From: a virus
IMG/VR virus record: IMGVR_UViG_3300028242_000098
Direction: 5' to 3' (one strand)
Length of the DNA stretch: 35,301 nt
Shown: positions 5,156-30,970 of the stretch, piece after piece
How positions within the stretch are numbered: position 1 is the first letter of the stretch
How the letters are laid out: each line of letters begins with the position of its first letter
Notes under the pieces: generated by a model
The model's input: the letters and a program-made list of their open reading frames with translations, nothing else
Databases searched by the model: none
Told to the model about the DNA's origin: nothing
Translations under genes and position numbers: made by a program

Positions 5156-5473
5156 ATGACATCTATAAGACAACAGATAATCAAAGCAAAAAAGGAAAAG
5201 CGAGAACGGGAGGAAGATATGTGGTTTGTAGATTACTGCAATAACTGTAAGACCGGTTTGGCTTTTAAAAATGATGTGCCCTGCCATCATCCATATTACT
5301 GCTGGCATGAAGGCGAATCAGCTATTGTACAGGCCGAGATTGTTAGAATAGATGAATACCGAAGACTGCATGGGCATGTCACATCACAGATGTATTATGA
5401 GTATAAAGAGTTAAGAAAAAGGCAAAGGCAATTGATATGGCGAGGCAGAAGAGAATTACTGAGAGACAAATAG
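5156..5473 (+). CDS. Basic Cys/His-rich protein, possible zinc-binding regulator
   Basis: CNNC...CHHPYYC motif; Arg/Lys-rich ends; last gene of the + arm. Confidence 0.55.
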   Translation: MTSIRQQIIKAKKEKREREEDMWFVDYCNNCKTGLAFKNDVPCHHPYYCWHEGESAIVQAEIVRIDEYRRLHGHVTSQMYYEYKELRKRQRQLIWRGRRELLRDK

Positions 5474-5476
5474 CTA

Positions 5477-5566
5477 TTATGTGGAATACCCCCTGCTAAC
5501 ATTAACTCTTTTGTTTTGACTATTATTCATTACATCTTGAAATGCGACAACAGAATCTAGAAACTC
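5477..5566 (-). pseudogene. Decayed duplicate of the terL 3' end
   Basis: Translates EFL-DSVVAF-...SQNKRVNVSRGYST*, compared with TerL EFL...DCVVAF...QSQRVNVDRWYST*; 29/36 nt identical at 5477-5512 vs 6475-6510. Confidence 0.65.
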
Positions 5567-5644
5567 TTAATCTATTATGGAAATAAATAATATCTATTGG
5601 ATTTAAGAAAAATTAATTGTTTAAAAATTAGAAGAGTAATGATA

Positions 5645-5755
5645 AGTTAAATCAATGTCTATAACATGATAACATGCTTGAACAGATAGACATTGAGTTA
5701 AATTTACTTATACAAATAGAATTTAAGAACCCAAAGTGGACTTTAAACTCTAATG
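5645..5755 (-). ncRNA. Putative two-hairpin small RNA, copy 1
   Basis: TATA box at 5775-5782; stems at 5717-5752 and 5652-5696; A-C mismatches on + become G-U pairs on -; ends approximate. Confidence 0.6.
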
Positions 5756-5864
5756 AATATTATGAAATAGATTGTATATAAAACTAGCAGTATGCTTTAA
5801 TAAACAAACACACAATATGATAATTTTAAATAACACATAACAGCATAAAAAAATAAGTAGAAAG

Positions 5865-5980
5865 TTTGAATCAATGCCTACAACATGTTTGCACATGCTT
5901 GAGTAGGTAGACATCGATTAAATCCATTCATTTAAATTTTAGAATTTAAGTACCCAGAAAGTGGATTTTAAACTCTAATG
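5865..5980 (-). ncRNA. Putative two-hairpin small RNA, copy 2
   Basis: TATA box at 6000-6007; stems at 5939-5978 and 5871-5917; GCAA tetraloop and G-U pairs on -; structure conserved despite substitutions relative to copy 1. Confidence 0.6.
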
Positions 5981-6027
5981 AATATTATGAAATAAATTAT
6001 ATATAAAGTTTATTGTTTTTTAATTTA

Positions 6028-6128
6028 TAAATTGCAGGAAGTGCCCATTACAAATAAACAAACCCAAACATAACCCGTTAAGGCTATCGATAAACAATCA
6101 TCATAATATTGAAGATTCCTGCAATTTA
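6028..6128. repeat. Perfect 13-bp inverted repeat enclosing a 75-nt A/C-rich spacer
   Basis: TAAATTGCAGGAA (6028-6040) / TTCCTGCAATTTA (6116-6128). Confidence 0.8.
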
Positions 6129-6154
6129 AAGGAGAAATCATTTATGACATCGGA

Positions 6155-6346
6155 TTAATTATAAATAATCCATATGATGACAAATGCCAGACACCACGTT
6201 ATGATGGTGTATATGAGCATTGCGACCCAAAGTTTTCTTTGGATACTCATAAGGATTCCCCCATTTAAATGAATGGATTTGCCAATAGGAGAGTTCATTA
6301 AAACTGTTGTTTTAAATTCCCCCATAGGCAATATTATTCTACTCAT
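6155..6346 (-). CDS. Small membrane protein with one C-terminal TM helix; an internal start would give a 31-aa peptide
   Basis: GGGAGGTGG RBS before ATG 6346; GGGGGA before the internal MSIQRKLWVAML...; hydrophobic C-terminus. Confidence 0.55.
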   Translation of the reverse strand: MSRIILPMGEFKTTVLMNSPIGKSIHLNGGILMSIQRKLWVAMLIYTIITWCLAFVIIWIIYN

Positions 6347-6474
6347 TATAATACCACCTCCCATTGGTCAAGAGTTTGATTACATATACTATTTAATTTA
6401 ATAGAATATATATTTTATTTGTTGGATTCCCAAAGCAAGATTGCTTTATACTTGAAATCTTAATTACTCAACTG

Positions 6475-7893
6475 TCATGTGGAATACCACCTATCCACAT
6501 TAACTCTTTGACTTTGAGTTTCTGAAGTTATTTTTTCATAAGCACCAGTGAATGCCACTACACAGTCATCGTGGATAGCTTCATTGGGATATGCAGTTAT
6601 TTTTTCCAGAAATTCCATAGCCCATTTTTTCGTAAACCCTGTTCTATCCCTCCCAACAAGGAATATTCCATTCTTCTGAATATCGGCTGAAACTCTTCTT
6701 GCCCTATCAATTTTGTTTTCTCTTGAGTTACCAGTGCCTGTGCTGAATCCTCTTCTATTTAACTCATCTATAATTAATAATCCGAAGTTTTTACCTGTAC
6801 TGCCGTCTAATTCTATATACTGTATATCTGACTTGTCACGTGCTGCAGTATTGATTATTTCATTGATCAAGTTTCTTGACTCAAGCTGAAATTCATATGA
6901 ATCCAAAATGTAAATGTTACCGGATAGATCTTTAGCTAACATGACTCCCGCAGTATAATCTGGATCACTGCCTTTCAGTTTGTCATCATTCAATACTTCA
7001 GTAGCTGCTAAATCCCAATATCTGATGACTTTAACGATTGGTATTTTCATGTATTCATCATGAGAGATTAGGTGGAAGTCTGATTCATCGAATAGCTGAC
7101 CTTTAACACTTGCATACCAGTTACCGTTCATTAACTGTTCTCTTGTAACTCTATCCAATCCCATTAAGTATTCTTCATAGTCCTTGCGGTCTAAATATAT
7201 ATTATCCAAATAGCTAGAGCTAATGAATCTGATTTGTGATTTGTCCTGAATATCTTCATCAATCTTTTCTATGAATCTTTCTCTTACCCATTTGTTTCCA
7301 CGCTTGCCAGGATTGCTTGAGCACATTAACTGTGTTGGAAGCTTATTGTCTTTTGTTTTCCTTACACGAGAACGCATATAAATATATTTGAATCTCTCCA
7401 ATTGTGTAAGCTCATCTATTCCAATGAATTGATATTCAGAACCCTGATAAGTATCCAAGTCATTAATGTTTCTCAAATATCCAAAAGTTAAAGAATTACC
7501 ATTTGGAAATGTCCATGAATGTTCTGTTCCATCCCACTTTGGTTTGATAGCTGAATTATTTTGAATCTCCTTTCTATTTAACCATTGACTTGCTTTGTGA
7601 ATTAAAGCTCCTTTACGTTTCAAGTCAGATAAAGTACGTCTCAATATTAACGCATGATATTCATTGACATCATCCTGAACATAAAACAAAGATCTCATTA
7701 AAAGACTGGTTGATTTACTTCCTCCAGCTGCACCTCCAATCAAAACTTCCTTTTCTGTAGCTAATATCATTTCTGCTTGCTTTGGAAATGGACTGAAGGG
7801 TATATATGGATTTTCATATACACACTTCTGAAGAATAGCTTTATCTTTAGCATCTAAATAGAATTGGTTGTTTTCATCATACATTATTATCAT
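6475..7893 (-). CDS. terL: Terminase large subunit
   Basis: Walker A GGAAGGSKS, Walker B FIGIDELTQ, SSNPG coupling motif, RNase H-like nuclease YWDLAA...DYTAG...HDDCV. Confidence 0.95.
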   Translation of the reverse strand: MIIMYDENNQFYLDAKDKAILQKCVYENPYIPFSPFPKQAEMILATEKEVLIGGAAGGSKSTSLLMRSLFYVQDDVNEYHALILRRTLSDLKRKGALIHKASQWLNRKEIQNNSAIKPKWDGTEHSWTFPNGNSLTFGYLRNINDLDTYQGSEYQFIGIDELTQLERFKYIYMRSRVRKTKDNKLPTQLMCSSNPGKRGNKWVRERFIEKIDEDIQDKSQIRFISSSYLDNIYLDRKDYEEYLMGLDRVTREQLMNGNWYASVKGQLFDESDFHLISHDEYMKIPIVKVIRYWDLAATEVLNDDKLKGSDPDYTAGVMLAKDLSGNIYILDSYEFQLESRNLINEIINTAARDKSDIQYIELDGSTGKNFGLLIIDELNRRGFSTGTGNSRENKIDRARRVSADIQKNGIFLVGRDRTGFTKKWAMEFLEKITAYPNEAIHDDCVVAFTGAYEKITSETQSQRVNVDRWYST

Positions 7894-24413: not shown

Positions 24414-24610
24414 TTTAAAATTCACACCTCTAACATTAATATCTTTTTTTAATGCTTAATAATGTTAATGTTCCTTTTATATATGCAGAAATTATAAATC
24501 AACTTGATTTTACCATTAATGCAAGATAAACATTATTGTTCATAAGTAAATTCAATTAACTGTAATAATTTGTAGTTAATTCCACCATATTCAACTCATG
24601 TTTTAAGCGA

Positions 24611-24941
24611 ACCAATTCGCCAGGCCGCAACCACGCCGACCGCAAGGGAGGCGTGTGTGGAGGCCTGGTGTAAAGAATTGGTGAGCATATATTATAGTGA
24701 GGAACCGACCCTAGCGGTCGGTTCGAGGTTAAGTTTTGTAAACGTGATTTTATTTTGCATTGGCATTCGTGGGCAATTAAAGGAGAGCTTGCCCTCCTTA
24801 ATTAGGCATTGAGGGTTTCAATGCAAGATATTATAGGAAGTGAAACACCACAAACACTTCCCTATATCTAATTCAATAACGAGCGTTTAACGAAGATTTA
24901 TAGCTCCGGTGTAAAAAGTATAAAACACCATCATAGCTATA
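24611..24941. other. Cluster of five hairpins, the first ~60% GC (structured RNA or ssDNA signal)
   Basis: Stems at 24611-24682, 24702-24724, 24755-24826, 24832-24866 and 24899-24941. Confidence 0.7.
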
Positions 24942-28395: not shown

Positions 28396-28702
28396 TCATC
28401 CATTATATTATATTTTTTATTATATTATTTATATAAACCATATAATAAACTTTTGATTATATAAGGACAAAAAAATCATCTGCCCGCCATCCAAATTTTT
28501 TATTTTTTAACCAACCTCATTAATTTCCTATATACTGACACTTGTGAAAATAGAAATTATGAGAAATACATATGAAATAATAAAATAAACAGTCGATAAA
28601 AATAGCAGTTAATAATAAAAGTAATTATTTGATTAATCGTAAAATCAATTATTCGATGCTTTTGAAAAATATAAAAAAAGAGATCAACTGCCAAAGATGC
28701 AG

Positions 28703-30970
28703 TTAATCTGTAATGTCTTCACTTTCCTTTCTCCTGTATCCGACAACCAACAAGATCTCACACACCACTGCAAGTGCAATGAACTTCAAAATATCATCCG
28801 GACCGTTTTCCACAATATTCTTGGTAATCTCATAAGCCTTACTCACATCCTGTGATGCACCACTGCTTCCACCGGCACCGGCAGATGAAGCGGAACTTGA
28901 TGACCTGCCAGATGAGGTCATGCCGTTGACGCTTGGAGTTTCACTTGATGTTGAGTTTTCACTTGCAACCACATCATTATTATATGAGTTGCTAGCTGTC
29001 CCATCATTGTTGAATGAGTTCACGGTTTTTGTATCTGTTCCCTGATTTGTTTTGCGTGACAGGCTTTCACCATTGTCCCCGCTCAGGTCAGGAAAACCTT
29101 TAAAACCATTGTCACCATCAGCACTATCCGGACTATTGAATCCACTAGGAGTATTGCCGCCGGTGTTTATTGAACCTCCGCCATTGCCTCCCGGAAGCAA
29201 AGGATTGCCACCAGGAAATCCCGGCCTTTGAGGAACAATTCCACTGCCGTTAATGACATTGGTTCTGCCGTTGACGTTTTCAGGCGGAACATATACAAAC
29301 GGATCACCGCCATCAACCTCATTGCTTTGATGCTCGAGACCATACTCGAATATTGTGATTACACGGTTTCCTGAAAAATCATTATTCTTATCCTTATCAG
29401 TATCAGCACCAATATTGTCACCACGCTTGAAGGGATCATAATTGGTATCGGCATACTTGTCAGTTCTTACTAGCGTATTGTTGGTCACTGTAGTGTTGTC
29501 GGCATCCAGCATATGTGAAACGTAATAACCGTCACTGATAACAGTATTGTTCACCACCCTGTATGTGTGTGTACTGTCGGTTTTCTGAGAATATGAAATG
29601 CCGTAAAGGTTATCATCCCATTTCACAGCTCCAGTATTGTGGATTTCTATTATGTTGTTCATTATGATGTCATTGTTGTCCTGTGACTCAATACCCGCAA
29701 CCAAAGCCCAGCTGTGATTGCCCGCACGACCAGTCACATTAATGTAGTTGTTGAGAATTGTAATGTAGTTGTCACCATTGAAGTTATGTGAATAAATACC
29801 AATATTTGGACCGTTGCTCTTGGAGTACAAGTTATTGTATCTAATCATTACCCCGCTTGCAGGACCTGTCAACTGTATCGGATAAGCGGTTCCCGCAGCA
29901 TAAGCACCACCATTGGTACCCAGACGAATGCTATTGCCATCAACAAGCAAATCCTTTGCACGATAAACATCCAATGCATAAAGATAATTGGCCTCATCCT
30001 TATAGGTAATATCATCAATCAAAGTAATCACATTATTGGTAACATTGCAATTATTTGAATCACAGATGAATACGCTGTCCAATGTAGGATAAGCGCACTC
30101 GGGCCGGACATTTACATTGGTATTGATAATGTTATTGTTGAATGACAGGTCATCACAGTTGCTGATTCCCACTGCCAGACAGAATTCAGAATCCAAATTA
30201 GCAGTAGTGTCCAGAAATGCAACCGTACGCAAAGGCAACTGAGTATTGACTGTGTTGTTTTCAAATAAAGTATTAGGAGAGTGTTCCAACTTAATACCGT
30301 AAACACGACCACTGCTTGGGTTATTGCCGATTAAGTTTACAGTGCTGTTGGCTATCCGGACATTACGGTTATTCTTGTACTTGGTGCCTTCACTATAAAT
30401 ACCATAGGCATCAGCGTTCAATGGAGCGACGTAGTTGATAACAGTATTGTAAATACCTGCATTGTCGCAATGCCATAACAGGACTGCCGCATAATCATTA
30501 TCCTCAAAGGATTCAGTCACATTCAATACCAGATTGTTTAATGTGACATCATCAGCCTCAATGCTGAAAACAGTATTTTTCAATGTATGATTATTACCGT
30601 AGATAGTGACATTCTTAGCCCTAACGGTCAAAATGCCAAGATCCTCCATATCCTCAGATATGAACAGTTTAGCATCAGAGTAAGTGGACTTAAGCACTCC
30701 CCTTACAAAATAATCATCAACATTATCATTAGTGATATTGATTGTCAAGTCAGCTACATCCGCTTCGCCTACTGCCTGATTAGTGCTGGCATCATCCACA
30801 GTGTCCAATGATGAAACACTAGCAGTTTCATTGGACAAATCCAGAATCGTGTCAGTGACATTATCATCATGAGCTGAAACGGACGTTAATGAAATCACAA
30901 ATATTAACATCAACAGGGATATTTTCAATGAATCTCTTATCTTTCTCACCTCCCACAAAAAATCCATCAA
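28703..30970 (-). CDS. Host adhesin-like surface protein with right-handed beta-helix and C-terminal membrane anchor
   Basis: Signal peptide; NN-I/V beta-helix repeats; G/S/N-rich linker; SKAYEITK...ILKFIALAVVCEILLVVGYRRK. Confidence 0.85.
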   Translation of the reverse strand: MMDFLWEVRKIRDSLKISLLMLIFVISLTSVSAHDDNVTDTILDLSNETASVSSLDTVDDASTNQAVGEADVADLTINITNDNVDDYFVRGVLKSTYSDAKLFISEDMEDLGILTVRAKNVTIYGNNHTLKNTVFSIEADDVTLNNLVLNVTESFEDNDYAAVLLWHCDNAGIYNTVINYVAPLNADAYGIYSEGTKYKNNRNVRIANSTVNLIGNNPSSGRVYGIKLEHSPNTLFENNTVNTQLPLRTVAFLDTTANLDSEFCLAVGISNCDDLSFNNNIINTNVNVRPECAYPTLDSVFICDSNNCNVTNNVITLIDDITYKDEANYLYALDVYRAKDLLVDGNSIRLGTNGGAYAAGTAYPIQLTGPASGVMIRYNNLYSKSNGPNIGIYSHNFNGDNYITILNNYINVTGRAGNHSWALVAGIESQDNNDIIMNNIIEIHNTGAVKWDDNLYGISYSQKTDSTHTYRVVNNTVISDGYYVSHMLDADNTTVTNNTLVRTDKYADTNYDPFKRGDNIGADTDKDKNNDFSGNRVITIFEYGLEHQSNEVDGGDPFVYVPPENVNGRTNVINGSGIVPQRPGFPGGNPLLPGGNGGGSINTGGNTPSGFNSPDSADGDNGFKGFPDLSGDNGESLSRKTNQGTDTKTVNSFNNDGTASNSYNNDVVASENSTSSETPSVNGMTSSGRSSSSASSAGAGGSSGASQDVSKAYEITKNIVENGPDDILKFIALAVVCEILLVVGYRRKESEDITD

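What the first reader, a model, noticed from the sequence alone, without database searches (positions are those of the whole stretch)
5645..6008. Tandem pair of promoter-bearing, two-hairpin small RNA genes with strand-diagnostic G-U pairs
Seen: two ~135-bp units (5652-5783, 5871-6008) share TTTAAACTCTAATGAATATTATGAAATA and a TATA box about 25 nt upstream of the first hairpin on -. Hairpin 1 is TAGAGTTTAA/TTAAATTCTA with a small inner stem. Hairpin 2 has an 11-bp outer stem, a 7-nt one-sided bulge (CTGTTCA vs CTACTCA) and an inner stem AGCATG/CATGTT. Substitutions between copies preserve pairing (a T-A to C-G swap; G-U pairs), the mismatches in the main stems are A-C on + and so G-U on -, and copy 2 has a GCAA tetraloop. 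No ORF is shared. Inference: a virus-encoded sRNA family (antisense regulator, RNA antitoxin or anti-defence decoy).
Basis: partly seen in the sequence, partly recalled or inferred. Interest (0 to 1): 0.7.

Follow-up and report, generated by a model that had tools for sequence, protein, structure and literature searches.

The report
RNA-controlled toxin module, methanogen virus
The two repeats are small RNA genes belonging to a compact module in which a two-hairpin RNA pairs with the message of a 31-residue membrane peptide right at its ribosome-binding site, which looks like the first well-supported 'type I toxin-antitoxin' family in archaea and their viruses.

Summary
The two units are 89% identical. 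Each has a consensus archaeal TATA box 23-24 nt before hairpin 1, two hairpins that fold well only on the minus strand, and an oligo-T tract.

They are only part of the feature. The window is a Methanobrevibacter (Methanobacteriales) tailed virus. Unit 2 is the 3' part of a conserved ~620-nt module (6414 to 5847, minus strand). That module also holds a structured leader and a 31-codon ORF for a one-helix hydrophobic peptide. The ORF's ribosome-binding site and start codon are locked by pairing with sequence just past the stop codon.

The single-stranded linker between the two sRNA hairpins is complementary (15-20 bp) to the leader immediately 5' of the ribosome-binding site. In 18 of 19 modules from metagenomes and Methanobrevibacter genomes, linker and leader change together (at least 8 classes; mismatches are G-U only; 0 of 20000 permutations).

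Unit 2 matches the window's own leader. Unit 1 is an orphan matched to leaders found in other genomes. Several loci have lost the ORF but kept the sRNA.

Best reading: a type I toxin-antitoxin-like module, a kind not yet reported in archaea. No transcript data or toxicity test could be obtained.

The parts
6407..6414 (-). A/T-rich TATA-like box of the peptide mRNA. The predicted start, about 6383, falls at the invariant 5' block of the leader.
   Evidence: A conserved A/T box preceded by a purine-rich stretch lies at a fixed distance from the invariant block in 17 modules (A5). The start site is inferred, not mapped.
6251..6383 (-). Structured 5' leader of the peptide mRNA: a closing helix, two hairpins, then a single-stranded stretch.
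   Evidence: RNAalifold consensus on 17 modules. The window's own fold reproduces it (z -4.95). The in-frame reading of the leader is broken in 6 of 17 modules, and the upstream start codon is not conserved.
6263..6280 (-). Target site for the sRNA linker. It is unpaired in the mRNA fold and ends 1 nt before the Shine-Dalgarno sequence.
   Evidence: 18-nt perfect inverted repeat with 5920-5937 (I3). Unpaired in both MFE and centroid structures. Co-varies with the linker.
6254..6262 (-). Shine-Dalgarno sequence of the 31-codon ORF. The start codon is at 6250-6248.
   Evidence: GGAGG-type motif 7 nt before the ATG in all modules (A5). About half of the virus's own genes carry similar motifs.
6155..6250 (-). 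31-codon ORF (P0001): short basic N-terminus followed by one hydrophobic helix. This is the candidate toxin.
   Evidence: Same length and frame, with no indel, in 16 distinct variants. Mean hydropathy of residues 7-29 is 2.47. A profile search finds 15 further relatives, all with the peptide at or near the C-terminus of longer gene calls. No Pfam or PADLOC family matches.
6131..6146 (-). Anti-start (6146-6142) and anti-Shine-Dalgarno (6139-6131) elements just 3' of the stop codon. They pair with the start codon and the Shine-Dalgarno sequence, forming an intrinsic translational lock.
   Evidence: 14 predicted pairs. Most are kept in 15-17 of the 17 modules; variation is mostly G-U, with occasional non-pairs. 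Present in the window's own MFE and centroid structures.
6028..6128 (-). 3' domain of the peptide mRNA: a 13-bp closing helix (6128-6116 with 6040-6028) around two small hairpins.
   Evidence: Compensatory changes in the closing helix (U-A 9 / C-G 6 / G-U 2; U-A 8 / C-G 7 / U-G 2) and in both inner hairpins.
6000..6007 (-). TATA box of sRNA 2 (TTTATATA).
   Evidence: The same octamer stands at the same distance in all but three of the 19 copies whose upstream flank was read. It is enriched in the window (22 against 5.4 expected) and stands upstream of many of the virus's genes.
5847..5976 (-). sRNA 2, about 129 nt, the cognate regulator: hairpin 1 (5976-5941), linker (5940-5918), hairpin 2 (5917-5871), tail and a T7 tract (5853-5847).
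   Evidence: Fold -35 kcal/mol, z -5.3. Covariance model score 162 bits. The linker pairs with the window's own leader at -21 to -24 kcal/mol, the best of all 17 leaders. Ends are predicted only.
5775..5782 (-). TATA box of sRNA 1 (TTTATATA).
5623..5751 (-). sRNA 1, about 128 nt, an orphan paralogue: hairpin 1 (5751-5718), linker (5717-5697), hairpin 2 (5696-5652), tail and a T5 tract (5627-5623).
   Evidence: Fold -28.5 kcal/mol, z -5.3. Its linker pairs poorly with the window's leader (-6.0) but at about -25 kcal/mol with the leaders of L060, L067 and L069. No matching leader exists in the window.
5474..5519 (-). Remnant copy of the last ~46 nt of the large-terminase gene (78% identical to 6472-6517). 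With the real gene end it brackets the ~950-nt cassette.
   Evidence: D2. By my own reading of the sequence, the minus strand keeps a terminase-like C-terminal frame ending in a stop codon.

Best explanation
The two repeats are small RNA genes of a type I toxin-antitoxin-like module carried by a Methanobrevibacter tailed virus.

The module lies on the minus strand at 6414-5847. It encodes an mRNA for a 31-residue single-helix hydrophobic peptide. Translation of this peptide is held off in two ways:
- **In cis.** The Shine-Dalgarno sequence and start codon pair with a sequence just past the stop codon.
- **In trans.** An sRNA of about 129 nt is made from its own TATA-box promoter about 150 nt downstream of the ORF.

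The sRNA has two constant hairpins separated by a variable single-stranded linker. The linker forms a 15-20-bp duplex with the single-stranded stretch of the leader that ends 0-2 nt before the Shine-Dalgarno sequence. This should block ribosome loading and perhaps mark the mRNA for decay.

Unit 2 is the cognate regulator of the window's own peptide mRNA. Unit 1 is a second, orphan sRNA. Its linker matches a different leader class, found in other Methanobrevibacter genomes, so it could neutralise a foreign module of host or rival-virus origin.

- **Shown by computation:** the structure, strand bias, complementarity and co-variation, ORF conservation, and dispersed, patchy distribution.
- **Inferred:** transcription, RNA ends, translational repression and peptide toxicity.
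For: **1. The sRNA is a conserved strand-specific structure.**
- 40 copies (36 distinct) were aligned, with 96.5% of cells paired.
- 8 pairs show changes on both sides, against 2.9 +/- 1.2 in shuffles (0 of 500). Slid controls pair at 26-43%.
- G-U cells number 126 and A-C cells 10.

**2. Promoter and terminator signals.**
- TTTATATA ends 23 nt before hairpin 1 in both units and in all but three of the 19 copies whose flanks were read.
- A run of four or more T (T4-T7) follows hairpin 2 within about 40 nt in most of those copies.
- The octamer is the virus's general promoter box, with 22 copies against 5.4 expected.

**3. Target.**
- An 18-nt perfect complement joins the unit 2 linker to the leader at 6263-6280.
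- Across 19 modules, 18 have contiguous duplexes of 12-20 bp (15 or more in 17). They total 308 Watson-Crick and 21 G-U pairs, with no internal A-C.
- Mean cognate energy is -18.6 kcal/mol against -8.2 for non-cognate pairs; 0 of 20000 permutations reach this.
- At least 8 specificity classes exist, including divergent modules reached independently through the peptide.

**4. Peptide.**
- The ORF has 31 codons, the same frame and no indels in 16 variants.
- It is hydrophobic with a basic N-terminus.
- The Shine-Dalgarno sequence and AUG are locked by a 14-bp helix that most of the 17 modules keep. The window's own fold shows the lock and leaves the target site unpaired.

**5. Behaviour typical of toxin-antitoxin loci.**
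- There are 1-4 copies per genome, in only 4 of 151 sampled genomes of the family.
- Neighbours are unrelated host genes such as MFS and solute transporters, LonB, CobQ and McrBC.
- Seven loci have lost or truncated the ORF but kept the sRNA.
- Tandem modules of different class occur in L080. Orphan sRNAs occur in the window and L066.

**6. Literature.** No type I system has been reported in archaea (bioRxiv 10.64898/2026.06.17.732947; PMC12390103; PMC2887945).
Against: - No transcript evidence could be obtained. Promoter, RNA ends and independence of the sRNA from read-through of the peptide mRNA are all predictions.
- Toxicity is untested.
- Variable sites in the ORF are not concentrated at third codon positions (14/14/18). 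Non-synonymous differences outnumber synonymous ones, 495 to 157. Coding therefore rests on frame, length and hydrophobicity conservation.
- One module (L064) carries a non-cognate sRNA (-5.9 kcal/mol). One divergent peptide locus (L087) has no sRNA downstream.
- The leader stays open in frame in 11 of 17 modules, so a longer product is not fully excluded.
- The outer stem of hairpin 1 is almost invariant and therefore uninformative about pairing.
- The sRNA alignment was fitted to the model's structure, which favours that structure.
Confidence: 0.68

Rival explanations
1. The 'sRNA' is not a separate gene. It is the 3' end of a long peptide mRNA that folds back on its own leader, a cis fold-back lock like the 5'-3' pairing of hok mRNA.
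For: No run of five or more T lies between the stop codon and the sRNA, so read-through is possible. Co-variation of linker and leader would arise equally from intramolecular pairing. In L056, L059 and L079 a deletion fuses the leader directly to the sRNA.
Against: A consensus TATA box stands at a fixed 23-nt distance in all but three copies read. That includes copies with no peptide gene upstream: window unit 1, the second unit of L066, L072 and L078. Orphan and non-cognate units make sense only in trans.
Confidence: 0.12
2. The peptide is not a toxin. It is a small membrane protein with a physiological or viral role, such as a holin-like lysis or exclusion factor, whose synthesis is timed by the sRNA.
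For: The module lies in a virus that has a pseudomurein endoisopeptidase but no recognised holin. The peptide is a single transmembrane helix. Toxicity is untested.
Against: Most copies lie among ordinary chromosomal genes with no viral neighbours. The closest viral relative, with a 93% identical terminase, lacks the module. The ORF is repeatedly deleted while the sRNA is kept. The module occurs in multiple orthogonal classes and in tandem. These traits fit selfish or defence modules better than a lysis gene.
Confidence: 0.13
3. The repeats act as DNA: a replication origin, packaging site or recombination site lying between the replication and packaging genes.
For: They lie in the 1-kb non-coding gap between convergent replication and terminase genes. 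At the same place the relative vir323 has a field of short direct repeats that looks like an origin or pac site. An 18-nt inverted repeat could serve as a recombinase site.
Against: Strand asymmetry is strong: 126 G-U cells against 10 A-C, and 96.5% against 86% paired. The imperfect positions within the linker-leader duplexes are all G-U. The same element occurs at many chromosomal sites unrelated to viruses. No recombinase or replication gene travels with it.
Confidence: 0.04

Closest known systems
Bacterial type I toxin-antitoxin loci with a trans-acting, separately encoded sRNA of limited complementarity (tisB/istR-1, zorO/orzO, shoB/ohsC, dinQ/agrB of enterobacteria; PMC2887945; details from my own knowledge)
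   Same: A hydrophobic single-helix peptide of about 30 residues. A long structured leader. An sRNA encoded next to the gene, not overlapping it, that pairs over about 18-20 nt with the leader at or just upstream of the ribosome-binding site. Multiple copies per genome, with divergent specificities.
   Different: The host is an archaeon and its virus. There is no sequence similarity to any known toxin or Rfam family. The sRNA lies downstream and co-directional rather than divergent. Promoter and terminator are of the archaeal type (TATA box, oligo-T). The recognition sequence sits in a linker between two constant hairpins.
hok/sok and aapA1/isoA1-type mRNAs with an intrinsic translational lock (my own knowledge)
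   Same: The ribosome-binding site of the toxin is sequestered by long-range pairing within the full-length mRNA, so the message is inert until it is remodelled.
   Different: Here the locking sequence lies immediately after the stop codon (6146-6131), not at the far 3' end. No processing step is known. The antisense RNA is not cis-overlapping.
Phage-encoded antitoxin mimics, e.g. pseudo-ToxI RNA of phage PhiTE against ToxIN (Blower et al. 2012, my own knowledge); virus-encoded stand-alone antitoxins in archaeal viruses (MSTV1 VapB- and MazE-like, PMC11375127)
   Same: A virus carries an antitoxin without its toxin (unit 1). That antitoxin matches toxin modules residing in other genomes of the host genus.
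   Different: Those cases involve type III RNA or type II protein antitoxins. Here the orphan would be a type I antisense RNA. The function is only inferred from complementarity (about -25 kcal/mol with the L060, L067 and L069 leaders).
Archaeal regulatory sRNAs that mask ribosome-binding sites (e.g. Methanosarcina mazei sRNA162, PMC3510493, listed)
   Same: An archaeal trans-acting sRNA pairs with the translation-initiation region of a target mRNA.
   Different: The present family is a self-contained, mobile two-gene module. It has a hydrophobic mini-protein and interchangeable specificities, and is not a chromosomal regulator of metabolism.

Membership tests
Type I toxin-antitoxin system | Small (under ~60 aa) hydrophobic, membrane-directed toxin peptide | tested here: met
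   31 aa with a basic N-terminus and one hydrophobic helix. Length and frame are kept in 16 variants.
Type I toxin-antitoxin system | The antitoxin is an RNA that base-pairs with the toxin mRNA | tested here: met
   Computational only. 12-20-bp duplexes occur in 18 of 19 modules (15 bp or more in 17), co-varying over at least 8 classes, with G-U at every imperfect position inside the duplexes. The target is unpaired in the mRNA fold and adjacent to the Shine-Dalgarno sequence.
Type I toxin-antitoxin system | The peptide is toxic when made without the RNA; the RNA relieves toxicity | not testable with these tools
   Only indirect signs are available: recurrent loss of the ORF with retention of the sRNA and two layers of translational repression.
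Type I toxin-antitoxin system | Both RNAs are transcribed; the antitoxin RNA is less stable than the toxin mRNA | not testable with these tools
Promoter and terminator motifs are the only evidence.
Known type I toxin or antitoxin families (Hok, Fst, Ldr, TisB, Ibs, ShoB, TxpA and others; Rfam antitoxin RNAs) | Sequence or profile similarity to a described family | tested here: not met
   No Rfam match at gathering score. The best sub-threshold matches have E > 1. No Pfam, PADLOC or PHROG match. The Atlas nearest neighbour scores 0.76, below significance.
Archaeal TATA/TFB-dependent promoter | An 8-bp TATA box about 24-31 nt upstream of the start, preceded by an A-rich BRE-like stretch | tested here: met
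   TTTATATA is preceded by an A-rich stretch at a fixed distance from hairpin 1 in all but three of the 19 copies whose flanks were read. The same octamer stands upstream of the virus's genes. The start site is not mapped.
Virus-encoded antitoxin mimic (anti-abortive-infection decoy) | The viral RNA matches the antitoxin of a host-resident toxin module and lacks its own toxin | tested here: inconclusive
   Unit 1 has no matching leader in the window. It pairs at about -25 kcal/mol with leaders of class-B modules that lie among host genes (L060 lies beside McrBC). It is unknown whether the actual host of this virus carries that class.

The most novel reading that the evidence does not exclude
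This is the first type I toxin-antitoxin family of the domain Archaea. The virus uses it in two ways. Its complete module (peptide plus sRNA 2) acts as an addiction or exclusion device. The orphan sRNA 1 is a counter-defence decoy that silences a different-class, host-chromosomal toxin which would otherwise abort infection. The swappable linker between two constant hairpins would then be the product of an arms race in RNA specificity between rumen methanogens and their viruses.
Probability: 0.25. Interest if true: 0.9.

Novelty: new variant of a known kind. Interest (0 to 1): 0.8.

Why it matters
Type I toxin-antitoxin systems are regarded as a bacterial speciality. Recent papers state that none has been found in archaea.

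This family offers a concrete, testable candidate. It has a defined peptide, a defined sRNA, a defined 18-nt interaction site, and a natural set of at least 8 orthogonal specificities that can serve as built-in compensatory-mutation controls.

It would also be a rare example of a trans-acting sRNA with a known target in Methanobacteriales, and of an RNA regulator carried by an archaeal virus. Its hosts are rumen methanogens, in which toxic peptides and virus-host conflict have practical interest for methane mitigation. The constant-scaffold, variable-linker design resembles engineered RNA regulators.

Tried and rejected
- **Rfam** at gathering and permissive thresholds gave nothing meaningful.
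- **blastn** of the 1-kb gap against 50,697 phage and virus records found no match. The closest virus, vir323, lacks the element.
- **IMG/VR exact-pattern scans** gave 29 and 24 single chance matches. None scored with the covariance model.
- **Terminase-based locus search** returned only one locus (L055), whose terminase match (93%) equals that of vir323.
- **Whole-genome search** of the window's own genome: no genome is held.
- **Pfam, PHROGs, PADLOC and protein Atlas** found no family for the peptide.
- **Bacterial promoter and terminator scan** is uninformative for an archaeon: 12 promoter-like sites against 10.6 expected, and no hairpin-plus-T terminator.
- **Codon-position test of the ORF** gave no third-position excess.
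- **Longer leader-plus-peptide protein** was rejected. The frame is broken in 6 of 17 modules, and the codon after the upstream Shine-Dalgarno-like motif is not a start codon in several.
- **DNA-level element** (origin, pac site, invertase site) was rejected on strand asymmetry and G-U-only mismatches.
- **Search of earlier scan notes by sequence** gave only chance word matches.

Full report
**What the window is**

The large ORF at 6475-7893 (minus strand) is a large terminase. It is 93% identical to that of 'Caudoviricetes sp. vir323', a tailed virus assigned to Methanobacteriales, and 35% identical to those of the Methanothermobacter viruses psiM100 and psiM2 (PHROG terminase). ORF 9436-10245 matches a pseudomurein endoisopeptidase.

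Plus-strand genes end at 5473. Minus-strand genes end with the terminase at 6475. The finding therefore lies in a 1-kb gap between convergent gene blocks. No whole genome is held for the window.

**The observation**

The two units are real: 5640-5768 and 5859-5993 on the minus strand, 89% identical with a 27-nt identical block.

Energies are -28.2 and -35.2 kcal/mol (z -5.0 and -5.9). The plus strand folds much worse.
- TTTATATA ends 23 nt before the first base of hairpin 1 in both units.
- This octamer occurs 22 times in the window against 5.4 expected, mostly just upstream of genes. It is evidently this virus's TATA box.
- T7 and T5 tracts follow hairpin 2 by about 18-25 nt. Oligo-T is the archaeal termination signal (established knowledge).
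- The predicted RNAs run from about 5976 to 5848 and from about 5751 to 5624. They fold with z -5.3.
- Rfam has no match.

**Relatives**

The element is absent from vir323, which has a field of short direct repeats at the same place. It is also absent from 50,697 phage records and from IMG/VR.

An exact pattern spanning hairpin 1 found 15 metagenome loci and 11 loci in Methanobrevibacter genomes. A covariance model built from the two window units scored every one of them. Sampling 151 genomes of the family gave 4 carriers, with 1-4 copies each.

Over 40 copies (36 distinct), the following hold:
- 96.5% of cells are paired.
- 8 pairs have changes on both sides, against 2.9 +/- 1.2 in shuffles (0 of 500).
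- Slid controls pair at only 26-43%.
- G-U cells number 126 and A-C cells 10. On the opposite strand only 86% would pair.

The structure is therefore selected on the minus-strand transcript. One caveat applies: the alignment was fitted to the model's structure.

**The larger module**

Comparing the loci with the window showed that the conserved block is about 620 nt, window 6465 to 5845, and not the hairpin unit alone. Alignment of 17 intact modules (A5) and its consensus fold give this anatomy on the minus strand:

- an A/T box (6414-6407) and an invariant 5' block near 6383;
- a leader with a closing helix and two hairpins;
- an unpaired stretch (6280-6263);
- a Shine-Dalgarno sequence (6262-6254) and an ATG (6250);
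- a 31-codon ORF ending at 6155;
- immediately after the stop, an anti-start and an anti-Shine-Dalgarno element (6146-6131). These pair with the start codon and the Shine-Dalgarno sequence through 14 bp that most of the 17 modules keep;
- a 3' domain closed by a 13-bp helix with clear compensatory changes (6128-6116 with 6040-6028);
- the TATA box and sRNA 2.

The window's own mRNA fold reproduces the lock and leaves 6280-6263 unpaired (z -4.95).

**The peptide**

The ORF encodes P0001, which has a short basic N-terminus and one hydrophobic helix.

- It has the same length and frame in 16 distinct variants, with no indel.
- A profile search of 1.8 billion representatives found 15 more relatives. 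In each, the peptide sits at or within about ten residues of the C-terminus of a longer gene call.
- Those upstream extensions are translations of the conserved leader.
- In 6 of 17 modules the frame is broken. The codon after the upstream Shine-Dalgarno-like motif is often not a start codon. I therefore read the leader as non-coding.
- About half of the virus's genes use GGAGG- or GGTGA-type ribosome-binding sites.
- No Pfam, PADLOC or PHROG family fits.
- Variable sites are not concentrated at third codon positions. This is a weakness of the coding argument.

**The interaction**

The linker of unit 2 (5937-5920) is an 18-nt perfect complement of 6280-6263.

Across modules the linker and this leader stretch are the most variable parts, yet they change together:
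- 18 of 19 modules give contiguous duplexes of 12-20 bp (15 or more in 17).
- These total 308 Watson-Crick and 21 G-U pairs, with no internal A-C.
- The mean cognate energy is -18.6 kcal/mol, against -8.2 for non-cognate pairs.
- No permutation out of 20000 reaches the observed mean.

At least 8 specificity classes exist. Two come from divergent modules that I reached through the peptide, not the RNA (L082 and L084).

The duplex ends 0-2 nt before the Shine-Dalgarno sequence. That lies within a ribosome's footprint, so the likely effect is a block of initiation (inference).

There are two exceptions. L064 has an sRNA of another class. L087 has the peptide but no sRNA downstream.

**The two window units**

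Unit 2 pairs best with the window's own leader (-21 to -24 kcal/mol). Unit 1 pairs poorly with it (-6.0), but pairs at about -25 kcal/mol with the leaders of L060, L067 and L069. No such leader exists in the window.

Unit 1 is thus an orphan regulator with a foreign specificity. It keeps its own TATA box, hairpins and T tract. L066 likewise carries a cognate sRNA plus an orphan. L080 carries two complete modules of different class in tandem.

**Context and dynamics**

Most copies lie among ordinary host genes: MFS and sodium-solute transporters, a short-chain dehydrogenase, LonB, CobQ, an adhesin-like protein and McrBC. These neighbours show no similarity to the window's viral proteins. L065 shares viral genes with the window but holds the module elsewhere.

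Seven loci have lost or truncated the ORF while keeping the sRNA:
- L056, L059 and L079 share one deletion that fuses the leader to the sRNA.
- L069, L072, L076 and L078 have other deletions.

Patchy distribution, multiple copies, orthogonal classes, orphans and toxin loss are the usual behaviour of toxin-antitoxin loci (established knowledge).

**Comparison with known systems**

The design works like the bacterial type I loci in which a neighbouring, non-overlapping sRNA pairs with the leader (tisB/istR-1, zorO/orzO, shoB/ohsC). It combines this with an intrinsic lock reminiscent of hok and aapA1 mRNAs (my own knowledge; PMC2887945).

It is not a member of any described family. It also differs in domain of life, promoter and terminator type, co-directional downstream placement of the sRNA, and the constant-hairpin, variable-linker layout.

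The papers I could search state that no type I system has been found in archaea. Earlier notes of this scan describe retargetable antisense RNAs in Asgard archaea. Those are on other DNA, I did not test them, and they are not the same family.

**Verdict**

The main uncertainty is experimental: no transcript or toxicity data could be obtained here.

Noticed in passing
window 5474-5519 and 6472-6517; L070 9461-10088 and 10994-11321: The cassette is bracketed by a duplicated end of the upstream gene. In the window this is the last ~46 nt of the terminase gene (78% identity). In L070 it is about 330 nt of the 3' part of an Rce1-like protease gene (88-92% identity). L073 and L074 carry 84 and 37 nt of a terminase 3' end next to their modules, and in L074 the flanking genes are host genes. 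This hints at a way of moving that copies the target gene's end.
   Followed up: partly
L001 7420-8000 (vir323, downstream of the terminase gene): At the place where the window holds the module, the closest viral relative has a dense field of short direct repeats of a TGGACT-containing unit. It looks like an iteron-type origin or a packaging site.
   Followed up: no
window 24599-24709 and 28538-28796: Two other non-coding stretches of the window have 80-89% identical copies next to the module in unrelated loci. The first matches L080 twice. The second matches L057, L062 and L068. They may be further dispersed non-coding elements.
   Followed up: no
window, whole: TTTATATA occurs 22 times against 5.4 expected, often as a palindromic pair on both strands, 25-55 nt upstream of gene starts. 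This gives a usable promoter map of the virus.
   Followed up: partly
window 6383-6251 and homologous leaders: The leader stays open in frame with the peptide ORF for 39-62 codons in 11 of 17 modules, far more than an AT-rich non-coding stretch should. Each conserved 'amino-acid' block corresponds to an arm of an RNA helix. This could be a by-product of RNA constraints or a trace of an upstream coupling frame like mok of hok/sok.
   Followed up: partly
window ~6379-6369 and 5976-5968: The invariant 5' block of the peptide mRNA contains a 7-nt complement of the invariant 5' arm of sRNA hairpin 1. This could be a second contact, but it cannot be tested by co-variation because neither side varies.
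   Followed up: no
L064 3173-3743: This module's sRNA does not match its own leader. By my reading of the sequences, that leader would pair over 17 bp with the sRNA class of L080a, L071 and L090. It may be a recombinant whose regulator sits elsewhere in the genome.
   Followed up: partly
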